Shown: positions 31,240 through 54,207 of the stretch, piece after piece | Numbering within the stretch: position 1 is the stretch's first letter | Layout of the letters: every line of letters starts with the position of its first letter | Source of the DNA: an uncultured Gammaproteobacteria bacterium | Lineage (GTDB): Bacteria > Patescibacteriota > Microgenomatia > 0-14-0-10-38-17 | Length of the DNA stretch: 64,000 nt | Assembly (NCBI GenBank): GCA_964348895.1 | Contig: CAYGEH010000001.1 | Location: forward strand, 182,610-246,609 | Direction: 5' to 3' | The notes under the pieces: generated by a model | Seen by the model: the letters and a program-made list of their open reading frames with translations, nothing else | What the model was told of the DNA's origin: nothing | Database searches by the model: none | Program-made: the position numbers and the translations under genes

Positions 31240-32727
31240 TTACACTTTTTCCGTTACCCGATATCCTAAATATTTTCCCAGCATTAAACGGGTGTGGGCA
31301 TCGATACCTGGTAAGGCTCCAAAAAAGAACCCTGAAATTGGCATTAGCAAAAATTCAAAAGGAATCAATAATGCTCGTAGGCGAGAAACCTCTTTGGGTC
31401 TTTTTGGCCTCTGCTTACCATTAACCCAAATAACTGCCGCCAGCGATAATAAGGTTAAGGAAAGAATCGCTGAAGAAAAATTAGCCATCATATATCCCAT
31501 TGACGACCTAGTAAATTCAGGATTAATTAGGGCTGGAATATTAACTCCCAGAGTAATGATGAACCAGTGAACTGGCCAGAGAAAATGATCACGCAAAACA
31601 TGTAAAACCCGAACTGTTTTGCTCCAAAAAGAAATTTTTCCCGAAGTTAAGTAGCGATAGATAATATAGGCATCATCAATCGCCCCCCAAGCCCAGCGCT
31701 TATATTGCTCATATTGATTAACTAATGTTTTCCAAGTCGTAGTTGATTCAGCGGCATCAACAAAAACAGGTAATGAAATTGGATCAACCTCTACTTGACC
31801 TTGTTTATCAAAATAAGCCTTAAAAAAAATTCGATAATCTTCGGGAATTATGTCTGGATCCCAATAGCCCACCTCATCAATTAACCTTAAAGAAGCAGAA
31901 TAATTAGCACAAGTAATAATTCGATAAGAGTGAACAGAAAAGGCAAAATGACGAACAGAGCTAAAAGTGTTACTGATTCTGGTTAAGGCGGGAAGATTCC
32001 AAAAATTATTGTAAAACAAAACTACTGGTTGCCAAAACCTTAAATATCGCTTGGGATTGTCTAAAAAGTGATAGGCAAGGGCAGAAAAATATTTTGGATG
32101 ATAAACATGATCGGCATCACAGCTTGATATTGTTAAATAATTAATGTCGTAGTTAAGTTCATCAACTAAGTACTTTTTCGTCTCCAATGCTGCCCAGCGC
32201 TCATTAGAGGACTTCCCCGCCATTTCTCCGGGTTGGAGCTGATGGGTTGTCACCAAGAAATGACCAAATTTAGAACCAAATTCTTTTTTCAAAACCCCAA
32301 CCTTTCGCTCTCTTTCTTTAACATCTTCTTTTGCTTCGGTAGCCAAAACAACAATAATATTTTTTAGAGGAAAATCTTGTTTAGCAATCGCCTGAAGAGT
32401 TCTCTGAAGAATGTGGAGAGGTTCTTTATAGGTAACTATCACTATAATATGATGAACTTTCTTCCAATCTCCAAAACCCTTAGCCTCCCCCAACCAGTCA
32501 GTCATTTTAGAGGCTTCCATTTTATAGTGACCCATAACCGCACCAATACCTAAGAAAGCCGATTGATATAGCCAATAAAGTCCATAGAAAAGAATAAAAT
32601 AGGCTACCGCTAAAGAAGAAACAAACGATCCCCAAAATGGAAAAAGAATTAAATTCCAAGAAACAAACCCAGGCAAAATCTCTAATAAGCGAATCACTAT
32701 TCGACGATTTTTTTCTAAAAATTTCAT
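31240..32727 (-). CDS. Membrane-integrated processive GT2 glycosyltransferase (cellulose/chitin/hyaluronan-synthase-like)
   Basis: GT-A core with DAD(H) and QYEQYKRWAWG (QxxRW) motifs; N- and C-terminal TM helices. Confidence 0.7.
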   Translation of the reverse strand: MKFLEKNRRIVIRLLEILPGFVSWNLILFPFWGSFVSSLAVAYFILFYGLYWLYQSAFLGIGAVMGHYKMEASKMTDWLGEAKGFGDWKKVHHIIVIVTYKEPLHILQRTLQAIAKQDFPLKNIIVVLATEAKEDVKERERKVGVLKKEFGSKFGHFLVTTHQLQPGEMAGKSSNERWAALETKKYLVDELNYDINYLTISSCDADHVYHPKYFSALAYHFLDNPKRYLRFWQPVVLFYNNFWNLPALTRISNTFSSVRHFAFSVHSYRIITCANYSASLRLIDEVGYWDPDIIPEDYRIFFKAYFDKQGQVEVDPISLPVFVDAAESTTTWKTLVNQYEQYKRWAWGAIDDAYIIYRYLTSGKISFWSKTVRVLHVLRDHFLWPVHWFIITLGVNIPALINPEFTRSSMGYMMANFSSAILSLTLLSLAAVIWVNGKQRPKRPKEVSRLRALLIPFEFLLMPISGFFFGALPGIDAHTRLMLGKYLGYRVTEKV

Positions 32728-35409: not shown

Positions 35410-35973
35410 GTGTCTAAAATAAAAGGGGAAATTTCACTACTACCAAAGGAAAAAGATGAAAACCGACTCGAACAAGCCTCTGACTGGATAATAACTACTG
35501 GTCGGTGGGTTGTTGTTTTTACCCTTTTCTTTGTTTTACTGGCCTTTCTGTCTCGTTTTTGGCTAGACCAAAGAATTGCCGACCTCTACGCCCAAAGCGC
35601 GCAAAGAATTGCTATCGTTGAAGCCTCTAAAGACTTTGAGGAAGATTTTAGATTACTTCAAAATCAGTTTGATAGAATCCAAGCTTTAGATCAAGAAAAG
35701 CCAAATCAGGCCGAACAGGTTAAAAAAATAATTGCAATTCTGCCGGAAAGAATTAACCTGACCTCAATTAACATTGTTGACGATCAAGTTGATTTCACTA
35801 TTATTTCCCAAAACGAGCTTGATTTAAATCATTTTTTTCAAAATTTAATTCTTTGTCCATACCTTGATCAAATTAATATTGCTAACATTTCCACCAAAAC
35901 ATTTGGTATCGAAACAGAAATTTCTGTTAACGCTAGATTTGTCGATGTTATTAGCGAGACCAACAAACAATGA
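35410..35973 (+). CDS. PilN-like type IV pilus assembly protein
   Basis: N-terminal ISLLPKEK...R (INLLP-type PilN signature), a single TM helix and a periplasmic domain; 187 aa; likely GTG start. Confidence 0.55.
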   Translation: MSKIKGEISLLPKEKDENRLEQASDWIITTGRWVVVFTLFFVLLAFLSRFWLDQRIADLYAQSAQRIAIVEASKDFEEDFRLLQNQFDRIQALDQEKPNQAEQVKKIIAILPERINLTSINIVDDQVDFTIISQNELDLNHFFQNLILCPYLDQINIANISTKTFGIETEISVNARFVDVISETNKQ

Positions 35974-36611
35974 TTAATCTACCCAAGCTTTCTTATCGCA
36001 ATGCTTTGTCTCAAATACCAATTCCAGTGCGAGAAAAAAGTCGCAAATGGGCTTCAACAATAGCAACTCTCTTTTTGACTACTTTCTTTATTGCTTTTGC
36101 CATCAGACCCACTGTGATTACTATTGTTGAACTTTTGGCCGAAATTAGAGCTCGAGAGGAATTAAACCAAAAGCTTCAAGAAAAAATAGAGCAAATTATG
36201 GTGGCTCAAAAACTATATAACCAAATATATCCTCGACTTTATCTTCTCGACCAAGCTTTACCGACAAATCCTAAATTTGCCTATTTCTCGCAAACTCTAG
36301 AAAGCAATCGAATAGAGGCTAATTTAAACTTGGAAACTCTTAATTATTCTTCAATAGTTTTAACTGAAATGGCCGACACTAAAACAGAAGAAAAAAATCA
36401 AGAATTTGTCTTTACCACGGGTCTTTCTGGTCGCTATCACGACCTAAAGAGTTTTCTAGAAAATCTTTTTAACCAAAGAAGAATTATTTATATTAATAAT
36501 CTAAAGATTGACCAAAAGCAGAATAATCAACAAGGCGAGCAGGCCCAGGCTGACATCCTCCCCTTAACCATTACCATTGACGGCGAAGCATTTTATTTGG
36601 GCAGTGAATAA
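35970..36611 (+). CDS. PilO-like type IV pilus assembly protein
   Basis: Short cytoplasmic N-terminus, TM helix, coiled coil (ELNQKLQEKIEQ) then a periplasmic domain; overlaps the pilN-like gene by 4 nt. Confidence 0.5.
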   Translation: MINLPKLSYRNALSQIPIPVREKSRKWASTIATLFLTTFFIAFAIRPTVITIVELLAEIRAREELNQKLQEKIEQIMVAQKLYNQIYPRLYLLDQALPTNPKFAYFSQTLESNRIEANLNLETLNYSSIVLTEMADTKTEEKNQEFVFTTGLSGRYHDLKSFLENLFNQRRIIYINNLKIDQKQNNQQGEQAQADILPLTITIDGEAFYLGSE

Positions 36612-37067: not shown

Positions 37068-38525
37068 ATGAGGCTTAAACCCGCCAAAACCATTCCCAGT
37101 ATTATTGGCCTTTTGCTTTTAACCGTTCTTGTCTTTGGCGGTGTTTATCTTACTCAAAGACTAGGCAGAACCACCACTCAAATTGCTGCCTCGCGCCAAC
37201 CCTTATCAGTCAGGGTGGCCAATATTACTGATCGAGCCGCTGTCGTTTACTGGCTAACAGAAGAAGAAACAGAGGGAAGTATTAAGCTTAACGATAAAAT
37301 TTATCTTGATAATCGAGACAGGGTTTCTTCTCAGGCAAAAAAACGCTTTACTCATTATGTCGCCATTGATGATCTTCTTCCAGGCGAAACCTATCATTTT
37401 GCCATTATCAGCCAAGGGCAAATTCAACAAAAAGACAGCTTTCAGTTTACCACTGCCCAAGCCTTGATTGGTCCTCCTGCAGAAGTTGCCGATTTGGCTT
37501 TTGGTATTATTTTGGACAATCAACAAAATCAGCCCTTGGCTGACACTCTTGTTACTCTTTCTCTGCCTGGAGCCACTAATCTGGCTAGCCTAACTGACGA
37601 CAATGGTTTTTGGTCTATTCCCTTGAGCACTGCTTATCAGAAAGATTTATCTAGGCCAATTAGTTATGATCGAGAAAAAGAGGTTCTTGAAATCCTAGTT
37701 GAATCTCGTCCTGGATTAAGCTCAACCGTTATCACTAATACTGGTAATGATCATCCAGTTCCTCCGATAATCATTGGAAAGTCATATGATTTTTCCCAAA
37801 ATCCTCCCACCCCAAGACAGCAACCAGAAGATTTTGATTGGACTAACCCTCTAGAAACAGTTGAAGAAATAAACAACTCTTCTTTTTTTCTTCCCCAAGA
37901 GCAAATTGACCCAAAAGAAGCTCAAGCTGTAATCAATATCAACGATCCCCAAGAGGGAGAAACTGTTTTTACCGCTAAACCAGAATTTTCTGGACGAGGT
38001 CCGGCTAATCAAACTATTAAAGTTACTTTAGAATCGCCTAAAAAGTTTGAGGAGGAGATTGTTGTTTCTGCCTTTGGCTCGTGGCAATGGAGTCCACCAG
38101 AACACCTTACCCCCGGAAGACACACTCTCACTGTTGAGTATCACGACGAAAACAACATTCTTCATGTTGTCAGTAGAACCTTTATAGTTCAAGCCTCTAG
38201 TATTTCTCCTTCGCCAACACCAATAGTGCCTCTACCAACCATCCCCCCTCAAGTTACCCCAACTCCTACTCCAGTTCGAACTACTCCAACCCCTACTCCA
38301 GTTCGCACTACCCCAACTCCTACTCCAGTTCGCACTACCCCAACTCCTACTCCAGTTCGAACTACTCCAACCCCTACCCCTTTGCCAACAATAACACCAA
38401 TAATTAAAGAAGCCACTGCTCCAGCCGAAATAGTTTCTGGCAACTTGACGCCCTTGGTTATTCTTGCTATTCTGGGCTTAGGCTTAATTTATTTTGCTTT
38501 TGTTGTTCATCAAAAAAAACACTAA
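37068..38525 (+). CDS. Surface protein with Fn3-like domain, 4x PTPTPVRTT repeat linker and C-terminal TM anchor with basic tail
   Basis: Signal anchor; Fn3-like VANITDRAAVVYW...YHFAI; tandem 27-nt repeats; C-terminus TPLVILAILGLGLIYFAFVVHQKKH. Confidence 0.55.
   Translation: MRLKPAKTIPSIIGLLLLTVLVFGGVYLTQRLGRTTTQIAASRQPLSVRVANITDRAAVVYWLTEEETEGSIKLNDKIYLDNRDRVSSQAKKRFTHYVAIDDLLPGETYHFAIISQGQIQQKDSFQFTTAQALIGPPAEVADLAFGIILDNQQNQPLADTLVTLSLPGATNLASLTDDNGFWSIPLSTAYQKDLSRPISYDREKEVLEILVESRPGLSSTVITNTGNDHPVPPIIIGKSYDFSQNPPTPRQQPEDFDWTNPLETVEEINNSSFFLPQEQIDPKEAQAVININDPQEGETVFTAKPEFSGRGPANQTIKVTLESPKKFEEEIVVSAFGSWQWSPPEHLTPGRHTLTVEYHDENNILHVVSRTFIVQASSISPSPTPIVPLPTIPPQVTPTPTPVRTTPTPTPVRTTPTPTPVRTTPTPTPVRTTPTPTPLPTITPIIKEATAPAEIVSGNLTPLVILAILGLGLIYFAFVVHQKKH
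38259..38366 (+). repeat. Perfect 27-bp tandem repeat, 4 copies, encoding PTPTPVRTT
   Basis: ccaactcctactccagttcgaactact repeated four times with only synonymous variation. Confidence 0.8.
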
Positions 38526-39928
38526 TGCTTCCCGCTTCAAATAAACCATCACCGCCACCTCTTCCTCCAGAAAACTACAAGAATCAAATTGCCGTTAACT
38601 TTAGCTCTATTGACAATAATCAAGTCAAAACCCAACCCTCTCAAGGCTCCAAACAAAAAACAAAAAAAATATTTATAATCATCGCTGCTATTTTTTTGGC
38701 ACTAATAGCGCTAATGGGAGCTCTTTTTTTCATTCGAGAAAGACAAGACATCAGAGAAGAAGCAGCAACAACTGGACGCTTAATTTGTATGCCTGTTGAC
38801 AACAATGGAAATATCACTAATGAAAAATATCAACATGATCGAATGTTGGTTAAAAACGAAACAAATAGAGACATCCAAATCAAAATTCAAACTAATCTTT
38901 GTCCATATCAAGGACAAAATCCTCAAATCGGATATCGCTGCGATGACTATGTTGGCGCTTTCCCTTATATTGTTCGGGCGGGAACTCAGGTAATTTTACC
39001 CAATCCCGATACCGAATCATGGTTGTCACAGGGCTGGGTTGGTTGTCAAAAAATTGGTCAAATGGACATTCAAAAAGATAAAGATCACTACATTCACATT
39101 GGTGTTGACCCCAACACTATTCCAGACTGCTTTAACACTGTTGACAATCGCGTTTGGGAAGGGGGAATTGCTTTTACTATCAAGGCTAATTCTGCCTCCT
39201 GTTGTCCAAAAATGGAAGTAGCCGTCTCCCCTAATAATCCTAGACCAGGACAAGAGGTTGTTGTCAGAGCCTCTAGTCCATCTCCCCTAGTTTGTGCTGA
39301 ACTAGTTAATTTTTCTGGCTTGGCCGGAAAACCAACTTGGATTGGCATGGACGGAAATTATAACTGGTCCTGGAGGGCAACCGCTGGAAACACCCCCGGA
39401 CAATACAGTCTTACCTTTAGGGGCAATACTAGGGATTCTGGTCAAGGAGTCTGTCCGGGTCGGGCGATCGGTGACTGGTGTCAAGTAACTGGCAACTTTG
39501 GTGTTGGCGTTGCCCCAACTCCAACCCCAACTCCAACTCCCACTCCGACAATCTTTCCGACTCCCACTCCAACCCCCACCCCAACACCTCCCCAATACGA
39601 CTACAACTGCCATACTATTAATGTTTACGATGCTAATCGAAATTTAATTAATCGTAACGACTTAAAAAACCTAAAAGCAGGAGACTTAATTTACATCGGA
39701 GTGGTCGCCAACAGTGGCCATCCAATCCACCAAATTAATAAAGCCAGGATTCGTGTTAATCGTAATTATTGGCTGGCTCAAGATGAAACTAGCGAAAAAT
39801 TAACTACCAGCGCTAATCATTTAACTGAATTTGTTAAAAGCTACATTATTCCTGAAGGATTATTGAATTTTAAGATTGAGGCAGAGGTTCACCTTAACGC
39901 TCCCAGTCCAGTCGGAGGCTGGCGTTAG
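38525..39928 (+). CDS. Membrane-anchored extracellular Cys-containing protein with a (TP)n linker and a C-terminal beta-rich domain
   Basis: Pro-rich cytoplasmic N-terminus (PSPPPLPPENY), TM helix, Cys-containing ectodomain, [12 protein letters not shown] linker; its ATG overlaps the upstream stop (TAATG). Confidence 0.5.
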   Translation: MLPASNKPSPPPLPPENYKNQIAVNFSSIDNNQVKTQPSQGSKQKTKKIFIIIAAIFLALIALMGALFFIRERQDIREEAATTGRLICMPVDNNGNITNEKYQHDRMLVKNETNRDIQIKIQTNLCPYQGQNPQIGYRCDDYVGAFPYIVRAGTQVILPNPDTESWLSQGWVGCQKIGQMDIQKDKDHYIHIGVDPNTIPDCFNTVDNRVWEGGIAFTIKANSASCCPKMEVAVSPNNPRPGQEVVVRASSPSPLVCAELVNFSGLAGKPTWIGMDGNYNWSWRATAGNTPGQYSLTFRGNTRDSGQGVCPGRAIGDWCQVTGNFGVGVAPTPTPTPTPTPTIFPTPTPTPTPTPPQYDYNCHTINVYDANRNLINRNDLKNLKAGDLIYIGVVANSGHPIHQINKARIRVNRNYWLAQDETSEKLTTSANHLTEFVKSYIIPEGLLNFKIEAEVHLNAPSPVGGWR

Positions 39929-39940
39929 TTAAAAATTATT

Positions 39941-40414
39941 ATGACATCTAAAAAAACCCTAAAGACCATTGTTATTATTGTTGCCAGCCTCTTGTTGTTA
40001 GGACTAACTGTTTTCTTGGCTAGTCAAATTTATCAAACTCGCCAAGAACGTCTGGCTCCCACTGAACCAAGGGCGGTCAGCCCCACTTGCACTCTGGCTT
40101 TTACTATTTTGCCACCAACCCCAACCCCCACTCCGACACCTCCTCCAATCGTAACGCCTACTCCTACTCCAACCCCAACTCCCACTCCGACACCCTCTCC
40201 GACTCCGACTCCAACCCCAACCCCCACTCCAACACCTCCTCCAATCGTGACGCCTACTCCTACTCTTACCCCAATCCCAACACCCTCCCCAATCGTAACA
40301 CCTCCTCCTACTCCACCAACCACTCTGCCAGAAGCTGGAAGCATTTTGCCAACCATTGGAGTAGCCTTGGGCGGATTATTTTTGGGAATACTGGGACTCC
40401 TCCTCGTTTTTTAA
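39941..40414 (+). CDS. Small Thr/Pro-rich surface protein with C-terminal LPEAG + hydrophobic segment (sortase-signal-like)
   Basis: N-terminal signal anchor, about 90 aa of TP repeats, then [29 protein letters not shown] at the C-terminus. Confidence 0.5.
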
Positions 40415-40427: not shown

Positions 40428-41657
40428 GTGTTATCTGGAAAAAAAATTGCTATTGTTGGCGCTGGAATCAGTGGTTTATACTTGGCTTATCGTTTAAGCT
40501 CTAAGAACAAAGTTATTGTTTTTGAAAAAAATAACCAAGTCGGGGGATTAGCCTCAACTTTTCAATCCGACAACTGGAGTTGGCCGCTAGAAAGCTTTTA
40601 TCATCATTTTTTCACTTCTGATAAAAAATTAATAAGTCTTTTAAAAGAATTATCTTTATCGTTTTTTTGGCAAAAACCAACAACCGCTATTTGGCAAAAC
40701 GAAAAAGTTAATGATTTTTCTTCACCCCAAGATTTGTTTACTTTTCCCGAAATAAGTTTTTTTGACAAGGTTCGCCTGGGAGGAACACTGGGTTTATTAA
40801 AAATAATTCCTAATTATCGCCTAATTCCTAAAAAAGAAGCCAGTAAATTGTTCCCCTTGCTTATGGGTAAAACATCCTATCAAAAAATTTGGGAGCCGTT
40901 GATGCGAGGAAAGTTTGGTTCTTTTCAAAACAGGATTCCCGCCGTTTGGCTTTGGGCTAGAATAAAAAAAAGATCAACCTCTCTTGGTTATCCCAAGGGA
41001 GGGTTTAGTCAAATAACCAATTGCTTGGTTCAAAAAATTAAAACTCAAGGCGGTCAAATAAAAACTAATTTTCCAATCACTAGGGCTACTCAATTGGCTG
41101 GTTTTGATAAAATCATTTTTACTACCCCAAAAATAACTTTCCAACAAATTTTTAAAGAAAAGCCTCTTTGTCAAGTTGCTTACCTGGCAAGCTTAAACTT
41201 AATTATTTCAAGTCCCCAGCCACTTTTTGAAGACAGTCTGTATTGGCTCAATATTACTGACCCCTCTTTTCCTTTCGTGGCAATAATTAATCACTCTGGC
41301 TTGGTTTCTTCTAAAAAATACAATAACAGTTTTCCAATTTATCTTGGCGGATACTATCAACAAAACGATCCCATTATGAAAGAATCAGCTCAAGAAGTTT
41401 TTACTAAATTCAATCCGTTTTTAAAAAGAATTAATCCTAAATTTAATCCCCAAAACTGTCAGTTCTTTCTAAACAAAAACTTATGGGCTCAACCAATTGC
41501 TGATCTTAATCAGCCCCAACCTCATCCTTCGTTTAAAACGAAATATCAAAACGTTTTCTTGGTTAACATGGAACAAATTTATCCTTGGGACCGGGGAGTT
41601 AATTATGCTCTTGATTTGGCCGACAAGTTTTTGCACTCTGTTGCTCTTGTCTCTTAG
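40428..41657 (+). CDS. FAD-dependent oxidoreductase (amine-oxidase / UDP-galactopyranose-mutase-like Rossmann family)
   Basis: IAIVGAGISGL dinucleotide-binding motif followed by VGGLAST; 409 aa. Confidence 0.55.
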   Translation: MLSGKKIAIVGAGISGLYLAYRLSSKNKVIVFEKNNQVGGLASTFQSDNWSWPLESFYHHFFTSDKKLISLLKELSLSFFWQKPTTAIWQNEKVNDFSSPQDLFTFPEISFFDKVRLGGTLGLLKIIPNYRLIPKKEASKLFPLLMGKTSYQKIWEPLMRGKFGSFQNRIPAVWLWARIKKRSTSLGYPKGGFSQITNCLVQKIKTQGGQIKTNFPITRATQLAGFDKIIFTTPKITFQQIFKEKPLCQVAYLASLNLIISSPQPLFEDSLYWLNITDPSFPFVAIINHSGLVSSKKYNNSFPIYLGGYYQQNDPIMKESAQEVFTKFNPFLKRINPKFNPQNCQFFLNKNLWAQPIADLNQPQPHPSFKTKYQNVFLVNMEQIYPWDRGVNYALDLADKFLHSVALVS

Positions 41658-41676
41658 TTGATTTAAAATATGACTA

Positions 41677-42588
41677 ATGCTAAGGGCAAAAACTATTCTT
41701 GCTTCTTTAAGGCCGTATCAGTGGATTAAAAATCTTGCCATTTACGCCGCTCTTCTTTTTACTGGCTATCTCTTCGATGAAAACCACTTTTTGATTACCA
41801 CCGCAGGATTTGTCATTCTTTGTTTGCTCTCTTCTGCTTCTTATTTACTAAATGACATCGTTGATGTTGCTCGAGATCGTCTTCATCCTATTAAGAAAAA
41901 TCGACCTATTGCCACAGGGGAATTATCTGTTAATACCGCTTTTCAAGTTTCCGTGGGCTTGTTTATTTTTGGCCTAACAGCCGCCTTTCTGCTTAGTCGA
42001 GGATTTTTTATCATTTCACTAGTCTTTGTCGTTCTTCATTTAATTTATTCTTTTTATCTCAAAAAGCATCCCCCTCTAGATATTTTGGCAATCGCTGCCT
42101 CTTTTGTTTTAAGAACTCTGGCTGGAACAACCCTAAGCGGGTTTCACATTCCTATCTGGTTAGTCTTCTCGGTTATCTTTCTTTCTCTTTTTATTGCCAG
42201 CGGCAAGAGACGGTCCGAATTATTAAAAAAAGGACAAGGAACTCGACCCGCCCTAAAAGAATATCGTCGAGAATTACTAAATTCTTATTTATCTATTTTT
42301 GGCACCGCCACTCTTATTTCTTACGCTATGTTTACTTTTACCGCTTCTCCCCCCGAGTTTAGCGATAAGCTCTTAAGATTTCTGCTATATAACTATCCCC
42401 AAACGGTTGACAGAAAGTGGTTAACGCTCTCTGTTCCTTTTGTTATTATTGGTCTAATGCGTTATGCCCAATTAGTTTTTTTGGCTCAAGAGGGGGAAGC
42501 TCCAGAGAAAACGATTAAAGACACCTATTTAATTTTAAGTGTTTTGGGTTGGGGAGCGAGTATTTTTGCCATCATTTATGTCTTCTAG
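41677..42588 (+). CDS. UbiA-family polyprenyl-phosphate transferase (decaprenyl-phosphate phosphoribosyltransferase-like)
   Basis: NDIVDVARDRLHPIKKNRP (NDxxDxxxD) motif, about 8 TM helices; 303 aa. Confidence 0.65.
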   Translation: MLRAKTILASLRPYQWIKNLAIYAALLFTGYLFDENHFLITTAGFVILCLLSSASYLLNDIVDVARDRLHPIKKNRPIATGELSVNTAFQVSVGLFIFGLTAAFLLSRGFFIISLVFVVLHLIYSFYLKKHPPLDILAIAASFVLRTLAGTTLSGFHIPIWLVFSVIFLSLFIASGKRRSELLKKGQGTRPALKEYRRELLNSYLSIFGTATLISYAMFTFTASPPEFSDKLLRFLLYNYPQTVDRKWLTLSVPFVIIGLMRYAQLVFLAQEGEAPEKTIKDTYLILSVLGWGASIFAIIYVF

Positions 42589-44200
42589 GCAGGAAAAGAT
42601 TCTTCTCTTGGCTATTCTTGTTTTTTCCGCTCTGTTACGATTTGGTGGCCTGAATTGGGGCGACGGTTATTTCTTTCACCCTGATGAAAACAACATGGCT
42701 CGGGCAATTCTTAATTTAAGTCAAGGGAATAGTCCTGGTCTTTACGCTTACGGGCAATATCCCCTTTTTATCGCTCTTTTTTCTGCCAGAATTTATAATC
42801 TTTTTTCCTTTGTCCATCAACAACACCAGCTAACCTTTAGTCAGGCTGTTTTCTTCTTACGTTTTTGGTCAGCCTTAACTGGAGTCGCGGTTGTTTGGCT
42901 GGTTTATCTTTTGGGTCGAAATTTAATCGAAGCAAGGAGTGGTTTGATTGCTGCTGCCACCACCGCCTTTTTACCTGGTTTAATTCAAGCCAGCCACTTT
43001 GGCACCACCGAATCATGGTTAACTCTTTTTTATTTAACAATGGTTTATTTCTCTTTTCTCTTTTATCAAGAAAATAAAAGAGTCTATCTATTTAGCATTG
43101 GTTTATTGCTTGGCTTAGCTTTGGCAACTAAGATTTCGGCCGCTATTTTTATTTTTGTTCCTTTGACGGCAATAGGGCTTGTTGTTAAAAATGACAAAAA
43201 ATCTATTAAAGATAATTTAATTGGGTTTTTTCTTCTTATTATTATTGCTCTTATCGTAATGCTGCTTTTTTCTCCTTTTTTGGTTATTAATTACCAGCAA
43301 AGCCTTGCCGTCTTAAGGTACGAAATAGCCATTGCCAGGGGTAGTTTACCAATTTTTTACACTCGGCAATTTTTTAATACTCAACCATTCTTGTTCCAAA
43401 TTAAAAAGGTTTTGCCCTTTTTACTGGGTTGGCCGATTCTAGTTTTAGCTCCATTGGCAATAATTTCAATTATTAAAATTAGCAAAAGAAGAAACAAAAA
43501 AAATTATTTTTTTAGCTGGTTAATTGTTCTGCTTCCCAGTTTAATTTTTTTTATTTATCAAGGACAGCTGTTTGTTAAATGGACGCGCTTTATGGTTCCA
43601 ATTCTTCCAGTCTTTTCCCTGCTTTTTGCCCAAACAATAACTAGCTTTTATAAACCACTACAATATATTTTAATAGTTTCTTCTTTTCTTCCTGGCTTAT
43701 TTTTATTTGATTTAGTTTATGGACAACCTGATGTTCGTCAACAGTTTTCCTCTTGGGCTAAAAAAAATCTTCCCGAAAACTCTATTGTTCTTTTTGAAGA
43801 AAATAATGTTGTTGATCTTCCTCTAGGAAAACACTCTTTTCAAACAATTAGTTTTAACTTTTATCGTCTAGAAGAAGAGGACTTTCAAAACCAACTCAGC
43901 CAATTACTGGAATTAAGCGATTATCTTCTTATCCCCAGTCGTAGAGTTTTTGCTAACCATTCTTCAGCTAAATTTCCCAATACCGCTAATTTTTATCAAA
44001 AACTTTTTTCCGAACAGTTAGGTTTTCTTGAGTTAAAAAAATTTAACCCCACCAGCCGCCTATGGCTGGCCAATCTTTACTATGCCGAGGCCGAAAAAAG
44101 GGCAGAAGAAACCTGGACTGTCTTTGATCACCCCACTATCAGAATTTATCAAAAGAAAAAACCATATTCTGCCGAAGAATATCGGCAAATTTTATTTTAA
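42539..44200 (+). CDS. GT-C glycosyltransferase, ArnT/PMT-like (COG1807-type)
   Basis: Polytopic membrane protein with an FFHPDENN (DE) first-loop motif; 553 aa. Confidence 0.55.
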   Translation: MFWVGERVFLPSFMSSRQEKILLLAILVFSALLRFGGLNWGDGYFFHPDENNMARAILNLSQGNSPGLYAYGQYPLFIALFSARIYNLFSFVHQQHQLTFSQAVFFLRFWSALTGVAVVWLVYLLGRNLIEARSGLIAAATTAFLPGLIQASHFGTTESWLTLFYLTMVYFSFLFYQENKRVYLFSIGLLLGLALATKISAAIFIFVPLTAIGLVVKNDKKSIKDNLIGFFLLIIIALIVMLLFSPFLVINYQQSLAVLRYEIAIARGSLPIFYTRQFFNTQPFLFQIKKVLPFLLGWPILVLAPLAIISIIKISKRRNKKNYFFSWLIVLLPSLIFFIYQGQLFVKWTRFMVPILPVFSLLFAQTITSFYKPLQYILIVSSFLPGLFLFDLVYGQPDVRQQFSSWAKKNLPENSIVLFEENNVVDLPLGKHSFQTISFNFYRLEEEDFQNQLSQLLELSDYLLIPSRRVFANHSSAKFPNTANFYQKLFSEQLGFLELKKFNPTSRLWLANLYYAEAEKRAEETWTVFDHPTIRIYQKKKPYSAEEYRQILF

Positions 44201-44248
44201 AGAAGTAGAACCAAAAAAAACCTTGTTGAATGACTTACAACGCTTTTA

Positions 44249-44833
44249 TCAGGCAATAGGTGTTTGGGTAAGCTTTTTCAAGGCTTCTTCTATGGAAGAA
44301 ATCACCACAATATCTTTTCGTTTGTTTTCTGCTTTTTGCCTCCAACCAGGAATCAACCAGAAAAGTTTTGCTTTAGTTGAAACAGCTAATTTTTCCAATA
44401 CTTCTAGGTCATCGTCAATAAAAACATCAAGCCCTTCTGTGTTTATCGCCAAAGATTTAAACTGAATCGGATCTTGGTCTTCTTTATTAATAACAATTTG
44501 GCTAAATAAGTTGGTTAAATTGTTGCACTCCAACCAGTCTAGGGTTAATTGTTTTAAAAAGCTAAATCTGGCAGTAATTAAAAAAAGCTGAAAATCCCCA
44601 AGATTAGACCAGGTCTTGATTTTATTCTTATCAGAAAAAGATATTCTTCTTAAATAATTAATCGTTTTTAAAACTAGCTTCTCCCACCTATTTTTAGGAT
44701 AGAAATGGCTCATTCCTCCATTCGCAATTAATCCACTTTCTTTTTGTTTCCTTATCTTAAACCAAAAATAATCCAAACAGTGTCGTGCTAAAACTCCGTC
44801 TAAATCAAAACCAACTTTTATCGTTGCTGTCAT
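44249..44833 (-). CDS. HAD-superfamily hydrolase (nucleotidase/phosphatase-like)
   Basis: N-terminal GFDLDGVLA (DxDGV HAD motif I); 194 aa. Confidence 0.5.
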   Translation of the reverse strand: MTATIKVGFDLDGVLARHCLDYFWFKIRKQKESGLIANGGMSHFYPKNRWEKLVLKTINYLRRISFSDKNKIKTWSNLGDFQLFLITARFSFLKQLTLDWLECNNLTNLFSQIVINKEDQDPIQFKSLAINTEGLDVFIDDDLEVLEKLAVSTKAKLFWLIPGWRQKAENKRKDIVVISSIEEALKKLTQTPIA

Positions 44834-44905
44834 TTTCTGGTAGTCAGTTTAACATACCAACAGCACCTTTTTTAATCAAGCCAAATCAATTACAATAAAG
44901 CCTAA

Positions 44906-46942
44906 ATGGAAATTGTTCACGAGTTGGGTTTGGTTTTCTATTGGTGGTTTATTTTATTTTCTTTGGGAATAATTGTTCTTCCCTTGACTCAGTTGCTCTT
45001 TCGAGGTTTGTTTTCTTCTGGTTACTTGTTTTCTAAGGTTGTTGCCCTAGTTCTGTTTTCCTGGCCAGTTTTTCTCTTGGCTCACTTAAGAATTCTTCCC
45101 TTTACCCAAACAAGCATTTTGATATTTTTGGGATTAATGGGGGTGGGGCTTTTGTTCTTCTTTAAAAAAAGGCCCTTTCTTGACCGAAAAATGATTAGAC
45201 AAATTTTTTGGCAAGAAATTGGTTTTTTACTTGCTCTTTTACTCTGGTCATATGTTAGGTCTTTAAAGCCAGACATTTCCTGTTTAGAGAAGTTTATGAA
45301 TTTTGGCTTTATGAGAGTCCTAATCAATAGTCGTTTTTTGCCTCCAATCGATATGTGGTTTGCTGGAGAAACAATCAATTATTATTATTATGGTCATTTC
45401 CTTGCTGCTTTCCTAACTAAACTCTCCGGAATAGTCCCAATAATTACCTACAACCTAATGATTGCCACTCTTTTTGCTCTAACCACCAGTCAGGTTTTTT
45501 CTTTAGTTTCAAGTCTTGTCAGTAAAATCAGCAAAAACAAGAGAACCGTTATTGTCGCTGGTCTATTGGGAGCACTACTAATCGGTTTTGCCAGCAATCT
45601 TCACACTCCATATTATGTTTTGAAGGACGGAATCCAAAGCTATTGGTATCCTAACGCCACTCGCTATATTGGTTATAATCCCCCCACCGACGATAAAACC
45701 ATCCACGAGTTTCCAGCCTACTCTTTTGTTGTGGCTGACCTTCATGGTCATGTTTCTTCTCTGCCCTTGGTTATTTTATTTATTGGCTTGAATCTATCTT
45801 TAATTTTGGAGGGGAAAAGTAATTTTTGGCTAAAGGTAGCTTTCTTGGGTTTTCTTTTGGGAATAATTTACATGATTAATGCTTGGGATTTGCCAATTTA
45901 CCTTTTGTTTTTTGGCATTTGCTTGTTAATTAACCTTCTGGCTAGTGTCAAAAAATTAAAGACTTTTTCTCAGTTTATTTCTAAGCTACCAATTATAATT
46001 AAGCCGATAATGGTCGTAATCGGCCTTTTTCTTTTAGCCTCTCTCCCCTTCAATTTAAATTTTCAACCTATGACTCAGGGGATTGGAATAGTAAAAAGTC
46101 AAACACCTTTTTCCCAACTTCTAGTTCTTTGGGGTGCGTTTGGTTTTTGGGCTATAAGTTTCTTGTTTGTCTTTAAATTTATTCCTTCACGAAAACCAAC
46201 TGACTTTTTCGTTTTGGGGTTAATCACAACTGCTCTAATTCTTATCGGATTACCAGAAATAATTTATGTTAAAGACATTTATATTGACACCTTTCATCGA
46301 GCCAACACTATGTTTAAGCTTACCTTTCAAGCTTATTTAATGCTTACGGTCGCCTCTGTTTATATTATAGTTCGAACCTATCAAAGCTTAGGCTGGCTAT
46401 TAAAAAGATTATTTTTATTCATTTGTTTCGTTCTGATTGGCAGTCTTCTTATTTATCCCTTTTTTTCAATTCCTGGCTTTTACGGAAAGCCAAGGCTTGT
46501 TAAAACCCAAACCTTGTCGGGATTAGGCTTTCTGGCTCAAAGATACCCAGAAGACTATCAAGCAATTATTTGGATCGAAGAAAATCTTGTTCAAACGGCA
46601 GTTGTTTTAGAGGCGGCTGGGGATAGTTATACTGATTTTGGTCGCGTTTCTGTTTTCACTGGTCGCCCCACCATTCAAGGCTGGTTTGTTCATCAATGGC
46701 TTTGGCGAGGAAACTATGAAGAACCAACTAGAAGAGCTCTTCATGTTGAGCAAATTTACCAATCAGCCAATATCGATGTTGCTCAAAGCTTATTACAGAA
46801 ATACGCTGTTGACTATCTTTTCTTTGGTCAATTGGAGCGGGAAAAGTATCCCCAAGCAACTCTTGAAAGGCTAAGTCTTCTGGGAGAACCAGTTTTTAGA
46901 GCGGGAAGGACAGTGGTTTTTAGAATAAACAGCAGTCTTTAA
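44906..46942 (+). CDS. Large polytopic membrane protein of the YYY-motif (DUF2298 / Chlor_Arch_YYY) family, putative GT-C-like glycosyltransferase
   Basis: 678 aa, more than 14 TM helices; INYYYYGHF motif characteristic of the Chloroflexi/Archaea YYY family. Confidence 0.5.
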   Translation: MEIVHELGLVFYWWFILFSLGIIVLPLTQLLFRGLFSSGYLFSKVVALVLFSWPVFLLAHLRILPFTQTSILIFLGLMGVGLLFFFKKRPFLDRKMIRQIFWQEIGFLLALLLWSYVRSLKPDISCLEKFMNFGFMRVLINSRFLPPIDMWFAGETINYYYYGHFLAAFLTKLSGIVPIITYNLMIATLFALTTSQVFSLVSSLVSKISKNKRTVIVAGLLGALLIGFASNLHTPYYVLKDGIQSYWYPNATRYIGYNPPTDDKTIHEFPAYSFVVADLHGHVSSLPLVILFIGLNLSLILEGKSNFWLKVAFLGFLLGIIYMINAWDLPIYLLFFGICLLINLLASVKKLKTFSQFISKLPIIIKPIMVVIGLFLLASLPFNLNFQPMTQGIGIVKSQTPFSQLLVLWGAFGFWAISFLFVFKFIPSRKPTDFFVLGLITTALILIGLPEIIYVKDIYIDTFHRANTMFKLTFQAYLMLTVASVYIIVRTYQSLGWLLKRLFLFICFVLIGSLLIYPFFSIPGFYGKPRLVKTQTLSGLGFLAQRYPEDYQAIIWIEENLVQTAVVLEAAGDSYTDFGRVSVFTGRPTIQGWFVHQWLWRGNYEEPTRRALHVEQIYQSANIDVAQSLLQKYAVDYLFFGQLEREKYPQATLERLSLLGEPVFRAGRTVVFRINSSL

Positions 46943-53070: not shown

Positions 53071-54207
53071 CTAGGCTTGTTGTTTTTTTAAAGAGTTTAT
53101 TTTTAAAATAAACTCTTTAATCTCTTCCTTAAATCTTTCTTCGCTAAAGCTTCTTGCCCAAACCTGAAGAGTTTCCTTGTTCCAGTTTATTTTCTTGAAT
53201 TGTTCCAAAGCTTTATTGATAGCAGAAACCTCGGTGCTATTAATTAAAATACCCGTTTCCCCATTTTTGACTGATTCCCGAAAACCACCACCATTAAAAG
53301 CAATCACTGGTGTTCCAGCCGCTTGAGCCTCAACTACAGTAATTCCAAAATCCTCGTCCTGAGCTAAAGCCAAGAACCCCTTAGCTTCAGCATAAAGAAT
53401 GGCTAATTCATCATCGTTAACTCGCCCTAAAAACTCAACTATACCCTCTCCAAGTTTTTCTAGTCTTTCTCTTATTGTTTCGTACCCAGCGGTACCGCCA
53501 ACAATTTTTAGGGGCAACTTCAGTTCTTTGGCGGCAATAATTGCCTCCTCTAGTCCCTTTGCCCCCACCAGACGAGACACAATTAAAAAATACTCTTTTT
53601 TCCGCTTAATTTCGTTACTGGTAGCAACAAATTTTCTTACTAGCACTGGAGGATAAATAACCTTAGAATTAACCCGATAAAATTTTTTTACTCTTTGAGC
53701 AACATTTTTAGAATTTACTAGCCAATAGTCAACTTTTTTGGCTGAATAAAAATCAAATTTTCGCAAAAAATGGTTAATCACTAAGGCATAGAGCCTAACT
53801 AGACGATACTTTCTCCAATCACGACTAGTTTGATAGCCATACAGAAACCGTGGCGGAGTGTGACAATACGCCACCACCTTGGTTTGGTTACCAGTTTTAA
53901 ATCCTCGAGCAAAATAACCAGAACAAGAAGTAATTACCAAATCATAGTCGGACAAATCACAGCTTTGCCAAACCAGAGGAGCTAAAAACCTTAACGGACT
54001 ATAGAGATTTCTTCTTTTAATTAACCAGGCCCAACGACTTTCAATAATCTTTCGATCAGCAAAAGCCTTAGCCGCAATAGACTTTCGATCAGCAAAGGCA
54101 GTATAAATTGGCGCCTGAGGAAAAATGTCCGATAAAGAACGCAAAACTCTTTCCGCTCCACCAAATTCTTTTAAATAATCGTGAACTAAGGCAATTTTTT
54201 TTGTCAT
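53071..54207 (-). CDS. GT4-family glycosyltransferase (GT-B fold)
   Basis: EDFGITVVEAQAAGTPVIA (E-x7-E-like) motif; 378 aa. Confidence 0.7.
   Translation of the reverse strand: MTKKIALVHDYLKEFGGAERVLRSLSDIFPQAPIYTAFADRKSIAAKAFADRKIIESRWAWLIKRRNLYSPLRFLAPLVWQSCDLSDYDLVITSCSGYFARGFKTGNQTKVVAYCHTPPRFLYGYQTSRDWRKYRLVRLYALVINHFLRKFDFYSAKKVDYWLVNSKNVAQRVKKFYRVNSKVIYPPVLVRKFVATSNEIKRKKEYFLIVSRLVGAKGLEEAIIAAKELKLPLKIVGGTAGYETIRERLEKLGEGIVEFLGRVNDDELAILYAEAKGFLALAQDEDFGITVVEAQAAGTPVIAFNGGGFRESVKNGETGILINSTEVSAINKALEQFKKINWNKETLQVWARSFSEERFKEEIKEFILKINSLKKQQA

What the first reader, a model, noticed from the sequence alone, without database searches (positions are those of the whole stretch)
40428..46942. 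FAD-oxidoreductase + UbiA prenyl-phosphate transferase + ArnT-like GT-C + HAD + YYY-family membrane protein: candidate polyprenyl-phospho-sugar donor pathway feeding GT-C transferases
The arrangement of a UbiA-family enzyme (NDIVDVARDRLHP) next to a flavoenzyme and GT-C transferases echoes the mycobacterial decaprenyl-phospho-ribose/arabinose route (UbiA DPPR synthase, phosphatase, FAD-dependent oxidation/epimerisation, GT-C arabinosyltransferases). The flavoprotein is of the amine-oxidase/UGM-like Rossmann type, not DprE1-like. The phosphatase candidate is HAD-type and divergently oriented. The 678-aa membrane protein carries the YYYY motif of the Chloroflexi/Archaea YYY (DUF2298) family. The UbiA gene overlaps the GT-C gene by about 50 nt, consistent with co-translation.
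Basis: inference. Interest (0 to 1): 0.6.

Follow-up and report, generated by a model that had tools for sequence, protein, structure and literature searches.

The report
Lipid-linked pentose glycosylation locus, CPR bacterium
A tiny uncultured (Shapirobacteria-like) bacterium carries a tight gene set that most likely makes a lipid-linked ribose-type sugar donor and uses it to decorate its cell surface; the set resembles the mycobacterial arabinan route but starts with an uncharacterised flavoenzyme whose job is still open.

Summary
All five genes exist at the stated coordinates, and the family calls hold.

- **UbiA protein:** a DPPR-synthase-type phosphoribosyltransferase. Its best solved relative is Rv3806c (E 3e-32). 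Nine of eleven PRPP ligands are identical.
- **GT-C:** a PMT_2-type enzyme. It probably starts at ATG 42578, giving an 11-nt overlap with UbiA rather than 50 nt.
- **194-aa protein:** has a HAD fold and the catalytic motifs.
- **678-aa protein:** passes TIGR03662, and I link it to the GT-C superfamily through an intermediate family.
- **Flavoprotein:** an NF005560 member with a PPOX/phytoene-desaturase/MAO/UGM fold. It is not DprE1-like.

The best precedent is the "three-component" pentofuranose system (PPPRS, flippase, GT-C) of Kelly et al. 2024, together with the mycobacterial DPA route.

Comparative data refine the reading. In 6 of 6 contexts sampled through UbiA, the order is flavoprotein, UbiA, GT-C. 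The flavoprotein is wider than that: it heads GT-C/DUF2298 loci that lack UbiA, and in Chloroflexota it is coupled to MprF-type flippase-like genes. The HAD protein follows a GT4 glycosyltransferase, to which it is often fused, and not UbiA.

The donor-pathway idea is therefore supported for UbiA plus GT-C. The epimerase and phosphatase roles remain unproven. This is a new variant of a known kind.

The parts
40428..41657 (+). FAD flavoprotein of family NF005560 (PRK07233). It is cytoplasmic, with no signal peptide, and is the first gene of the operon.
   Evidence: NF005560 at 334 bits, above the cut-off of 252. It falls far below the cut-offs for PPOX, PDS/CrtI, HpnE and UGM. AF2 model pLDDT 92. 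The fold is PPOX/PDS/MAO/UGM at TM 0.7-0.8 and 11-16% identity. Invariant residues include GxGxxG, E33, H60, WxWARIKKR (174-182) and YPWDRG (385-390).
41677..42588 (+). UbiA-superfamily polyprenyl-phosphate 5-phosphoribosyltransferase (PPPRS/DPPRS-like).
   Evidence: The NCBIfam DPPRS models score 195, 186 and 142 bits, against 55 bits or less for any classical prenyltransferase. In the PDB, Rv3806c scores E 3e-32 against 1e-7 for the next hit. The PRPP and decaprenyl-phosphate ligands R22, K28, Y70, N73, D77, K87, R90, Y138, K143 and K191 are conserved as R12, K18, Y56, N59, D63, K73, R76, Y124, K129 and K177. Q135 becomes H and Y157 becomes F. All are invariant in 120 CPR homologues.
42578..44200 (+). 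GT-C glycosyltransferase (PMT_2 / ArnT-PMT-STT3 type). The probable start is ATG 42578 (540 aa); the longest ORF starts at GTG 42539 (553 aa).
   Evidence: PMT_2 at 53.7 bits, above the cut-off of 26.1. The family profile hits archaeal AglB at E 1.9e-5. D36-E37 ('HPDE') is invariant in the first loop after TM1. An 11-nt overlap with the UbiA stop is conserved in homologous loci.
44249..44833 (-). HAD-superfamily phosphatase of a CPR-specific family. It is convergent with the GT-C gene and divergent from the YYY gene.
   Evidence: Invariant D10-x-D12, T87, K126 and D141. AF2 model pLDDT 93.5. The top 50 Foldseek PDB hits are almost all HAD-superfamily folds. Relatives are fused to GT4 glycosyltransferases.
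44906..46942 (+). Chlor_Arch_YYY / DUF2298 polytopic membrane protein, probably of the GT-C superfamily.
   Evidence: TIGR03662 at 482 bits, above the cut-off of 300. DUF2298 at 325 bits. Transitive profile homology through family 'M546': M546 versus YYY gives probability 98.5% over 482 columns, and M546 versus PMT_2-type GT-C gives 96.8% over 287 columns. The direct YYY versus GT-C comparison gives only a local C-terminal match.
37068..40414 (+). Three surface or membrane proteins with (Thr-Pro)n linkers: 37068-38525, 38525-39928 and 39941-40414. They are candidate O-glycosylation acceptors. This is inference only.
   Evidence: The translations show TPTPTPVRT x5, [13 protein letters not shown]... 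and about 90 aa of TP-rich sequence. Tandem repeats are present in the DNA. The position immediately upstream of the flavoprotein is conserved.
35410..36611 (+). PilN-like and PilO-like genes. These are conserved upstream context, not shown to belong to the pathway.
   Evidence: Pfam PilN and PilO are recorded for the identical genes and for orthologues.

Best explanation
The operon flavoprotein-UbiA-GT-C (40428-44200) is a Patescibacteria version of the lipid-linked pentofuranose glycosylation systems.

- **Donor synthesis (inferred from active-site conservation).** On the cytoplasmic face, the UbiA-family enzyme transfers 5-phosphoribose from PRPP to a polyprenyl phosphate.
- **Dephosphorylation (inferred).** The 5-phosphate is removed, possibly by the neighbouring HAD phosphatase. 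That assignment is weak.
- **Flipping (inferred).** The polyprenyl-P-pentofuranose, as ribose or in a modified form, is flipped. The flippase is not identified.
- **Transfer (inferred).** It is used outside the membrane by the translationally coupled PMT_2-type GT-C, and perhaps by the GT-C-related YYY/DUF2298 protein. The acceptor would be a cell-envelope molecule, most plausibly the Thr/Pro-rich linkers of the surface proteins encoded just upstream, or a wall glycopolymer.
- **Flavoprotein (role unresolved).** It is a cytoplasmic, probably membrane-peripheral partner of GT-C-type and flippase-type membrane proteins in general. It acts on the lipid-linked donor, either on its sugar (as a non-homologous stand-in for DprE1, or as a redox-neutral isomerase) or on its polyprenyl tail.

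**Shown here:** family memberships, folds, active-site residues, gene coupling and cross-genome conservation. **Inferred:** every chemical step.
For: - **UbiA is a PPPRS.** The DPPRS models are by far its best hits. Rv3806c scores E 3e-32 in the PDB. PRPP-, 5-phosphate- and decaprenyl-phosphate-binding residues are conserved and invariant in 120 homologues.
- **GT-C.** PMT_2 scores above its cut-off, the first-loop DE motif is invariant, and the family profile hits AglB.
- **Coupling.** There is a 19-nt gap between flavoprotein and UbiA and an 11-nt overlap between UbiA and GT-C.
- **Conserved triad.** In 6 of 6 contexts sampled through UbiA homologues, the flavoprotein is immediately upstream and a PMT_2 GT-C immediately downstream (in L092 the flavoprotein gene is called in two pieces, so it may be disrupted). 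Two of these neighbourhoods lack the Pil genes.
- **Flavoprotein and membrane partners.** In CPR loci the gene after the flavoprotein is GT-C, M546, UbiA or YYY in 41 of 58 cases. The gap is 30 nt or less in 34 of 40, and the genes overlap in 22 of 40.
- **HAD protein.** The fold and catalytic motifs are present.
- **Precedent.** PPPRS plus phosphatase plus flippase plus GT-C, with optional epimerases, is an experimentally established pathway type (PMC11127046). P. aeruginosa uses it to O-glycosylate pilin, as stated in that paper.
- **Candidate acceptors.** TP-rich proteins and Pil genes lie directly upstream.
Against: - No biochemical data exist for any CPR member.
- No flippase of the MATE, GtrA or SMR type is in the cluster. 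The nearest MOP-family gene is MurJ at 25380-27011.
- The UbiA scores just under the NCBIfam equivalog cut-off (195 against 207 bits).
- The HAD protein follows GT4, SDR and YYY rather than UbiA across genomes. It is fused to GT4 in at least 9 representative clusters, never to UbiA. It does not match the HAD domain of HAD-UbiA fusions.
- Most flavoprotein-GT-C loci (37 of 45) have no UbiA nearby, and Chloroflexota loci have none. The core system can evidently work without an adjacent PPPRS.
- Enzymes with the PF01593 fold rarely oxidise sugar hydroxyls (general knowledge).
- The acceptor is pure inference.
Confidence: 0.6

Rival explanations
1. The flavoprotein modifies the polyprenyl tail of the carrier lipid by saturation, desaturation or cis/trans isomerisation, in the manner of PDS, CrtI, CrtISO, RetSat or HpnE. 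This would produce a special (for example dolichol-like) carrier phosphate that the PMT_2 and YYY GT-C enzymes and the PPPRS prefer. It is compatible with the rest of the best explanation; it is a rival only for the flavoprotein step.
For: - The highest TM-scores are to plant phytoene desaturase (TMq 0.80-0.81).
- Many enzymes of this fold act on polyisoprenoid chains (general knowledge).
- The flavoprotein is the constant member of loci whose sugar-activating genes differ: UbiA in some, an SDR epimerase in 13, UDP-glucose dehydrogenase in Chloroflexota. That pattern fits a role on the common lipid moiety.
- It needs no reductase partner, and none is present in the window.
- TIGR03662 and TIGR03663 are shared with Archaea, which use dolichyl phosphate (family descriptions, from my own knowledge).
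Against: - The fold match does not discriminate between PDS, PPOX, MAO and UGM. All sit at 11-16% identity.
- I know of no report of alpha-saturated polyprenols in CPR or Chloroflexota, and the literature searches found none.
Confidence: 0.27
2. The flavoprotein is a non-homologous functional replacement of DprE1. It oxidises (or, in a redox-neutral cycle, epimerises) the 2'- or 3'-OH of polyprenyl-P-ribofuranose, so that the GT-C transfers arabino- or xylofuranose.
For: - It sits immediately upstream of the PPPRS in 6 of 6 UbiA-sampled contexts.
- The layouts 'flippase-like, flavoprotein' (Chloroflexota) and 'flavoprotein, GT-C, GT-C, SDR' (13 loci) mirror the mycobacterial order Rv3789, dprE1, dprE2, aftA (general knowledge).
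- Known pentofuranose systems carry auxiliary epimerases (PMC11127046).
Against: - No SDR or other reductase partner is in the window or in the minimal flavoprotein-GT-C-YYY loci.
- Most flavoprotein loci lack UbiA.
- Alcohol oxidation is unusual for this fold.
- No DprE1 or DprE2 family signal appears.
Confidence: 0.25
3. The five genes are not one pathway. A conserved core (flavoprotein, GT-C, YYY) using a hexose- or other lipid-linked donor is merely neighboured, in some lineages, by an independent PPPRS module and by a HAD gene. The HAD gene belongs to a GT4 'sugar-phosphate synthase/phosphatase' pair.
For: - The core exists without UbiA in most loci.
- HAD-GT4 fusions and HAD-to-GT4 operons are common.
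- Gene order is strongly conserved by descent within Microgenomates, which can mimic functional linkage.
Against: - UbiA is always inserted exactly between the flavoprotein and a GT-C, with overlapping or near-abutting reading frames. This also holds in a different neighbourhood (L089, L092).
- A PPPRS product has no known use other than as a GT-C donor (general knowledge; PMC11127046).
Confidence: 0.2
4. The UbiA protein is a classical prenyltransferase (quinone, heme O or archaeal-type lipid), and the flavoprotein is a protoporphyrinogen oxidase or phytoene desaturase of pigment or cofactor metabolism.
For: JGI auto-annotations of homologues read '4-hydroxybenzoate polyprenyltransferase' and 'protoporphyrinogen oxidase'. 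The flavoprotein's fold class is shared with PPOX and PDS.
Against: - Classical prenyltransferase models score 55 bits or less, against 195 for DPPRS.
- The PRPP 5-phosphate ligands, which are absent from true UbiA enzymes according to PMC10994848, are conserved.
- PPOX scores 36.5 bits against a cut-off of 97.85, and PDS 30.7 against 569.
- No heme, quinone or carotenoid genes occur in the window or in the roughly 90 loci.
Confidence: 0.02

Closest known systems
Three-component extracytoplasmic pentofuranose glycosylation systems (Citrobacter youngae O1/O2: ORF15 PPPRS-PRP, ORF14 MATE flippase, ORF12 GT-C/GT136, ORF13 SDR epimerase; Kelly et al. 2024, PMC11127046)
   Same: Both have a UbiA-superfamily phosphoribosyltransferase with the same catalytic N-D-x-x-D...D loop, next to a GT-C transferase. 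A HAD-fold phosphatase is present in the locus. Optional accessory redox enzymes occur. The logic is the same: a cytoplasmic polyprenyl-P-Ribf donor and transfer outside the membrane.
   Different: - The phosphatase is a separate gene of a different HAD family. Elsewhere it is fused to GT4, not to the PPPRS.
- No MATE, GtrA or SMR flippase is in the cluster.
- The GT-C is of the PMT_2 type. GT136 membership was not tested.
- The accessory enzyme is an amine-oxidase-fold flavoprotein, not an SDR or DprE1/E2.
- A DUF2298/YYY protein is added.
- The host is a CPR bacterium without LPS.
Mycobacterial decaprenyl-phospho-arabinose pathway (Rv3806c, Rv3807c, DprE1/DprE2, Rv3789, AftA-D/Emb)
   Same: The PPPRS is homologous to Rv3806c (E 3e-32), with conserved PRPP and decaprenyl-phosphate ligands. 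GT-C enzymes are the consumers. A flavoenzyme gene sits next to GT-C and flippase-type genes.
   Different: The flavoprotein is not of the VAO/DprE1 type. There is no DprE2. The phosphatase is unrelated to Rv3807c (PAP2 type, general knowledge). The GT-Cs are not of the Emb/Aft families.
Pseudomonas aeruginosa group IV pilin O-arabinofuranosylation (TfpW GT-C with PPPRS and DprE1/E2 homologues; cited in PMC11127046)
   Same: A PPPRS-fed GT-C glycosylates Ser/Thr of a surface filament protein. Here the locus lies directly downstream of PilN/PilO-like genes and Thr/Pro-rich surface proteins.
   Different: The acceptor here is unknown. No pilin gene was identified in the cluster. The epimerase set is different.
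TIGR03662 (Chlor_Arch_YYY) / TIGR03663 (Agl23-type) gene pairs of Archaea and Chloroflexota
   Same: The 678-aa protein is a bona fide TIGR03662 member. It is paired with a PMT-like GT-C, as in the TIGRFAMs description (from my own knowledge).
   Different: The GT-C here scores only 32 bits on TIGR03663, against a cut-off of 126. The association with an NF005560 flavoprotein and a PPPRS has, to my knowledge, not been described.

Membership tests
Polyprenyl-phosphate phosphoribosyltransferase (DPPRS/PPPRS clade of the UbiA superfamily) | Best match to DPPRS family models and to Rv3806c rather than to aromatic or lipid prenyltransferases | tested here: met
   NF008978 at 195 bits, NF008977 at 186 bits and NF008976 at 142 bits, against 55 bits or less for the others. 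PDB entry 8j8j scores E 3e-32 against 1e-7 for the next hit.
Polyprenyl-phosphate phosphoribosyltransferase (DPPRS/PPPRS clade of the UbiA superfamily) | Score above the curated NCBIfam equivalog cut-off | tested here: not met
   195.2 bits against a cut-off of 207 (NF008978), and 186.1 against 234 (NF008977). This is a near miss and is expected for a distant phylum.
Polyprenyl-phosphate phosphoribosyltransferase (DPPRS/PPPRS clade of the UbiA superfamily) | PRPP ligands: Mg/pyrophosphate (N73, D77, R22, K87, R90, Y138, K143), ribose (Q135), 5-phosphate (K28, Y70, Y157). Decaprenyl-phosphate ligand K191. | tested here: met
   Ten of twelve residues are identical. Q135 becomes H121, and Y157 becomes F143 (Phe also occurs in some mycobacteria, PMC10994848). 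All are invariant in 120 CPR homologues.
Polyprenyl-phosphate phosphoribosyltransferase (DPPRS/PPPRS clade of the UbiA superfamily) | Enzymatic formation of polyprenyl-P-ribose-5-P from PRPP | not testable with these tools
   Requires a membrane assay.
Three-component pentofuranose glycosylation system (PMC11127046) | PPPRS gene adjacent to a GT-C gene | tested here: met
   An 11-nt overlap in the window, conserved in all UbiA-containing loci.
Three-component pentofuranose glycosylation system (PMC11127046) | Phosphoribose 5-phosphatase (HAD-type PRP domain, or a separate enzyme) linked to the PPPRS | tested here: inconclusive
   A HAD-fold phosphatase is present. However, it does not match the HAD half of the HAD-UbiA fusion model NF006088. 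It is fused to GT4 rather than to UbiA. It is absent within 9-10 kb in 4 of 10 UbiA loci.
Three-component pentofuranose glycosylation system (PMC11127046) | Dedicated flippase (MATE, GtrA or SMR) in the locus | tested here: not met
   There is no room for one and no hit between 40428 and 46942. MurJ lies 13 kb upstream.
DprE1 (VAO-type FAD oxidase) / DprE2 (SDR) | FAD_binding_4/VAO fold for the oxidase, with an SDR reductase partner | tested here: not met
   The flavoprotein has a GR2/amine-oxidase fold. No SDR occurs in the window genes scanned.
NF005560 (PRK07233) flavoprotein family | Score above the curated cut-off over the full length | tested here: met
   333.9 bits against 252, covering residues 6-405. 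The family has no assigned function.
Protoporphyrinogen oxidase / phytoene desaturase / UDP-galactopyranose mutase | Score above the family cut-offs | tested here: not met
   TIGR00562 scores 36.5 against 97.85. TIGR02731 scores 30.7 against 569. TIGR00031 scores 27.6 against 304. The matches are essentially confined to the N-terminal half, mostly the dinucleotide-binding region. Structural similarity is at superfamily level only.
GT-C glycosyltransferases (PMT_2 / ArnT-PMT-STT3 class) | Pfam PMT_2 above its gathering score, and an acidic motif in the first extracytoplasmic loop | tested here: met
   53.7 bits against 26.1. D36-E37 is invariant in 20 orthologues. AglB is hit at E 1.9e-5.
TIGR03663 (Agl23-type) | Score above the cut-off | tested here: not met
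   32.5 bits against 126.25.
TIGR03662 Chlor_Arch_YYY / DUF2298 | Score above the cut-off, and the YYYxG motif | tested here: met
   482 bits against 300. N158-Y159-Y160...G163-H164 is invariant.
GT-C superfamily (for the YYY protein) | Detectable homology to established GT-C families | tested here: inconclusive
   The direct hhalign comparison gives only a local match (83% and 43% probability). No Pfam or PDB hit was found. A transitive link through M546 is strong (98.5% and 96.8%).
HAD-superfamily phosphatases | Rossmannoid HAD fold with motifs I (DxD), II (S/T), III (K) and IV (D/E-D) | tested here: met
   D10, D12, T87, K126 and D141 are invariant. Model pLDDT is 93.5. The top Foldseek hits are almost all HAD-superfamily folds.

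The most novel reading that the evidence does not exclude
NF005560 flavoproteins are a previously unrecognised, obligatory cytoplasmic partner of GT-C/DUF2298 glycosyltransferases and MprF-type flippase-like proteins across Patescibacteria and Chloroflexota. They perform a new reaction on polyprenyl-phosphate-linked donors. This is either (a) a DprE1-independent route to arabino- or xylofuranose donors, or (b) a tail modification that creates a dolichol-like bacterial carrier lipid. DUF2298 is a new GT-C glycosyltransferase family that uses those donors.
Probability: 0.3. Interest if true: 0.75.

Novelty: new variant of a known kind. Interest (0 to 1): 0.55.

Why it matters
CPR/Patescibacteria are largely uncultured episymbionts, and their surface chemistry is almost unknown. 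This locus predicts that Microgenomates make polyprenyl-phospho-pentofuranose donors, as mycobacteria do, and use GT-C enzymes to decorate envelope components, possibly the Thr/Pro-rich surface proteins next to the pilus genes.

It also gives three orphan families a concrete, testable context:
- the NF005560 flavoprotein;
- DUF2298/YYY;
- a CPR-specific HAD phosphatase.

If the flavoprotein proves to be a DprE1 analogue or a carrier-lipid-modifying enzyme, that would add a new enzyme class to lipid-linked glycan biosynthesis. DprE1 is a major tuberculosis drug target.

Tried and rejected
- **First HAD structure job.** I repeated it with database homologues.
- **HAD protein against PDB, Pfam and NCBIfam by sequence.** Only sub-threshold HAD-family hits appeared, and there was no match to the HAD-UbiA fusion model. 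I therefore rejected the idea that it is a member of the PRP family of Kelly et al.
- **Rosetta-stone search for HAD-UbiA fusions.** None were found. HAD-GT4 fusions turned up instead.
- **YYY against PDB and Pfam GT-C families, and direct hhalign against the GT-C profile.** These were negative or local only. The question was settled only through the intermediate family M546.
- **Literature.** Nothing relevant was found on DUF2298, on DPPRS in Patescibacteria, or on a phytoene-desaturase-like polyprenol reductase.
- **Promoter and terminator scan.** Counts were not above the shuffled expectation. A hairpin lies at 44168-44189 near the end of the GT-C gene.
- **Rejected readings.** A quinone, heme or carotenoid reading was rejected (see rivals). 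The window's GT4 (53071-54207) was rejected as the partner of the HAD protein, because it scores only 57 bits on that GT4 family's HMM against about 500 for true partners.
- **Not resolved.** I could not determine whether genomes whose flavoprotein-GT-C locus lacks UbiA encode a PPPRS elsewhere.

Full report
**1. What is there**

The window is low-GC (about 38%). It comes from a Candidate Phyla Radiation bacterium of the Microgenomates group, close to Candidatus Shapirobacteria. This rests on the names attached to the nearest homologues and loci.

- **Flavoprotein (40428-41657).** It hits Pfam Amino_oxidase and NAD_binding_8, and passes the curated cut-off of NCBIfam NF005560, 'PRK07233 hypothetical protein' (334 against 252 bits). 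It stays far below the cut-offs of protoporphyrinogen oxidase, phytoene desaturases, HpnE and UDP-galactopyranose mutase.
- **UbiA gene (41677-42588).** It follows after 19 nt.
- **GT-C gene.** It has Pfam PMT_2 above threshold. Its longest ORF starts at GTG 42539. An alternative call of identical DNA, and the conserved 11-nt overlap in homologous loci, point to ATG 42578.
- **194-aa gene (44249-44833, minus strand).** It is convergent with the GT-C gene.
- **678-aa gene (44906-46942).** It diverges from the 194-aa gene and passes TIGR03662 (482 against 300 bits) and DUF2298.

**2. The UbiA protein is a phosphoribosyltransferase**

The three NCBIfam DPPRS models score 195, 186 and 142 bits. 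Every classical prenyltransferase model scores 55 bits or less. Against all PDB sequences, the best hit is M. tuberculosis Rv3806c (E 3e-32), and the next is at 1e-7.

I took the ligand list from the Rv3806c structure paper (PMC10994848) and mapped it through the HMMER alignment.

| Rv3806c residue | Window UbiA residue |
|---|---|
| R22 | R12 |
| K28 | K18 |
| Y70 | Y56 |
| N73 | N59 |
| D77 | D63 |
| K87 | K73 |
| R90 | R76 |
| Q135 | H121 |
| Y138 | Y124 |
| K143 | K129 |
| Y157 | F143 |
| K191 | K177 |

All of these are invariant in 120 CPR homologues. The paper states that the phosphoribose-binding residues are not conserved in true UbiA prenyltransferases, so their conservation here is diagnostic. 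The score sits just under the NCBIfam equivalog cut-off (195 against 207). I read this as divergence, not as a different function.

**3. The other proteins**

*GT-C.* It has the invariant D36-E37 ('HPDE') just after TM1. Its family profile reaches archaeal AglB.

*HAD protein.* The 194-aa family keeps D10-x-D12, T87, K126 and D141. Its AF2 model (pLDDT 93.5) matches almost exclusively HAD-superfamily folds. It is therefore a HAD phosphatase, but one that no Pfam or NCBIfam model recognises.

*Flavoprotein.* The model (pLDDT 92) resembles PPOX, plant PDS, MAO and UGM about equally well, at TM 0.7-0.8 and 11-16% identity. The protein is an orphan branch of that superfamily. It is cytoplasmic and is not VAO/DprE1-like.

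*YYY protein.* It has no direct sequence link to GT-C families. However, a Pfam-less 546-aa family ('M546') often occupies the GT-C position after the flavoprotein. M546 aligns with YYY at 98.5% probability over 482 columns, and with the PMT_2-type GT-Cs at 96.8% over 287 columns. I therefore regard DUF2298 as a probable GT-C superfamily member.

**4. Comparative genomics**

A genome-collection scan with the flavoprotein alignment gave 80 loci, 64 from CPR and 16 from Chloroflexota. I analysed them with ORF calling and iterated HMMs.

*CPR loci.*
- The recurring order is PilN, PilO, x, fn3/Big_13 protein, [TP-rich proteins], flavoprotein, [UbiA], GT-C, [GT-C], [SDR epimerase and/or GT4], HAD, YYY, [LytR_cpsA_psr].
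- Counts per locus set of 64: GT-C in 45, YYY in 36, LCP in 24, HAD in 20, SDR in 13, UbiA in 8.
- The gene after the flavoprotein is GT-C, M546, UbiA or YYY in 41 of 58 cases. The gap is 30 nt or less in 34 of 40, and the genes overlap in 22 of 40.

*Sampling from the UbiA side.* This sampling is unbiased by the flavoprotein. In 6 of 6 contexts the flavoprotein is immediately upstream and a PMT_2 GT-C immediately downstream (in L092 the flavoprotein gene is called in two pieces, so it may be disrupted). Two of these neighbourhoods lack the Pil genes. So UbiA always comes with the flavoprotein and a GT-C, but not the reverse.

*Chloroflexota loci.* The flavoprotein start overlaps an upstream LPG_synthase_TM (MprF-flippase-like) gene by 4 nt in 6 loci. 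Such a gene is directly upstream in 9 of 16 loci. UDP-glucose dehydrogenase follows in 5 of 16. No UbiA is nearby.

**5. The HAD protein**

A full-library profile search found 417 relatives. At least nine of the best 150 representatives are 550-600-aa fusions with the HAD domain at the N-terminus and a GT4 glycosyltransferase at the C-terminus. None is fused to UbiA. HAD-to-GT4 operons lie next to YYY in nine loci. The window has lost that GT4.

The HAD enzyme therefore probably belongs primarily with a GT4 'sugar-phosphate' step. It remains the only phosphatase candidate next to the PPPRS, but the link is weak.

**6. Interpretation**

The closest established systems are two:
- the three-component pentofuranose glycosylation systems (PPPRS with a HAD phosphatase domain, a flippase and a GT-C, with optional SDR or DprE1/E2 epimerases; PMC11127046);
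- the mycobacterial DPA pathway.

I conclude, with confidence about 0.6, that UbiA plus GT-C form such a system in this CPR bacterium. The flavoprotein is a general partner of GT-C-type and flippase-type membrane proteins. Its reaction cannot be fixed from these data.
- A role on the polyprenyl tail fits its fold relatives, its independence from any particular sugar-activating gene, and the absence of a reductase partner.
- A DprE1-like role fits its invariable position before the PPPRS, and the parallel with the mycobacterial gene order (Rv3789, dprE1, dprE2, aftA).

The acceptor is unknown. Three proteins with (Thr-Pro)n linkers are encoded directly upstream, and LCP genes occur in related loci. 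These suggest surface-protein O-glycosylation or a wall polymer. Both are inference.

**7. Verdict**

- **Observation:** confirmed, with the overlap corrected to 11 nt.
partly supported. The donor pathway feeding GT-C holds. The flavoprotein as epimerase and the HAD protein as pathway phosphatase are unproven, and the latter is disfavoured.
- **Novelty:** a new variant of a known kind.
- **Interest:** moderate, 0.55. The score comes mainly from the orphan flavoprotein/GT-C/DUF2298 association spanning two phyla.

Noticed in passing
window 39941-40414: A 157-aa protein made of an N-terminal TM helix, about 90 aa of (Thr-Pro)n, and a C-terminal 'LPEAG' followed by a hydrophobic tail that ends the protein. 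It looks like a sortase- or exosortase-type C-terminal sorting signal.
   Followed up: no
window 37068-38525 and 38525-39928: Two further surface proteins with TP linkers. One has fn3/Big_13 domains, TPTPTPVRT x5 from a 27-nt tandem repeat at 38255-38377, and a C-terminal TM anchor. They lie between the PilN/PilO-like genes (35410-36611) and the flavoprotein, and this order is conserved across Microgenomates.
   Followed up: partly
L010, L012, L013, L017-L024, L032-L060 etc. (24 loci), directly after the YYY gene: A LytR_cpsA_psr (LCP) gene, often followed by triose-phosphate isomerase, follows DUF2298 on the opposite strand in most related loci. The window lacks it, and PcrA/UvrD follows directly at 47043.
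   Followed up: partly
L041, L045, L062, L063, L066, L067, L075, L081, L086 (Chloroflexota): The NF005560 flavoprotein is translationally coupled (4-nt overlap in most of these loci) to one or two LPG_synthase_TM (MprF flippase-like) genes. UDP-glucose 6-dehydrogenase often follows. As far as I could find, this pairing has not been described.
   Followed up: partly
P0289, P0291, P0292, P0294, P0295, P0344, P0347, P0366 (database proteins): These are fusion proteins with the CPR-specific HAD domain at the N-terminus and a GT4 (Glyco_transf_4 plus Glycos_transf_1) glycosyltransferase at the C-terminus. The architecture recalls sugar-phosphate synthase/phosphatase pairs. The substrate is unknown.
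   Followed up: partly
L010:11250-12887 and 9-11 relatives ('M546'): A 545-580-aa polytopic membrane protein family with no Pfam hit, directly after the flavoprotein. By profile comparison it sits between the PMT_2 GT-Cs and DUF2298.
   Followed up: partly
window 16001-18000: GC rises to 0.46 against about 0.38 elsewhere, inside a long ORF (15706-18312, minus strand, 868 aa, TTG start). It is not an rRNA by Rfam. Only three tRNAs were found in the window (27152, 57205, 57540).
   Followed up: no
record titles of L012, L013, L019, L020, L023 and others: Many MAG records carrying this Microgenomates-type locus are titled 'uncultured Gammaproteobacteria' (one is titled 'Pseudomonadales'). The gene order and homology indicate that these are placeholder or mislabelled taxonomies.
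   Followed up: no
window 25380-32727: A cell-envelope gene neighbourhood lies upstream: MurJ, a PEGA/SH3 protein, a Glycos_transf_4 (MraY/WecA-type) gene, a large GT2, a Mur ligase and Ddl. In relatives, MurJ sits directly before the S20-PilN-PilO block.
   Followed up: partly
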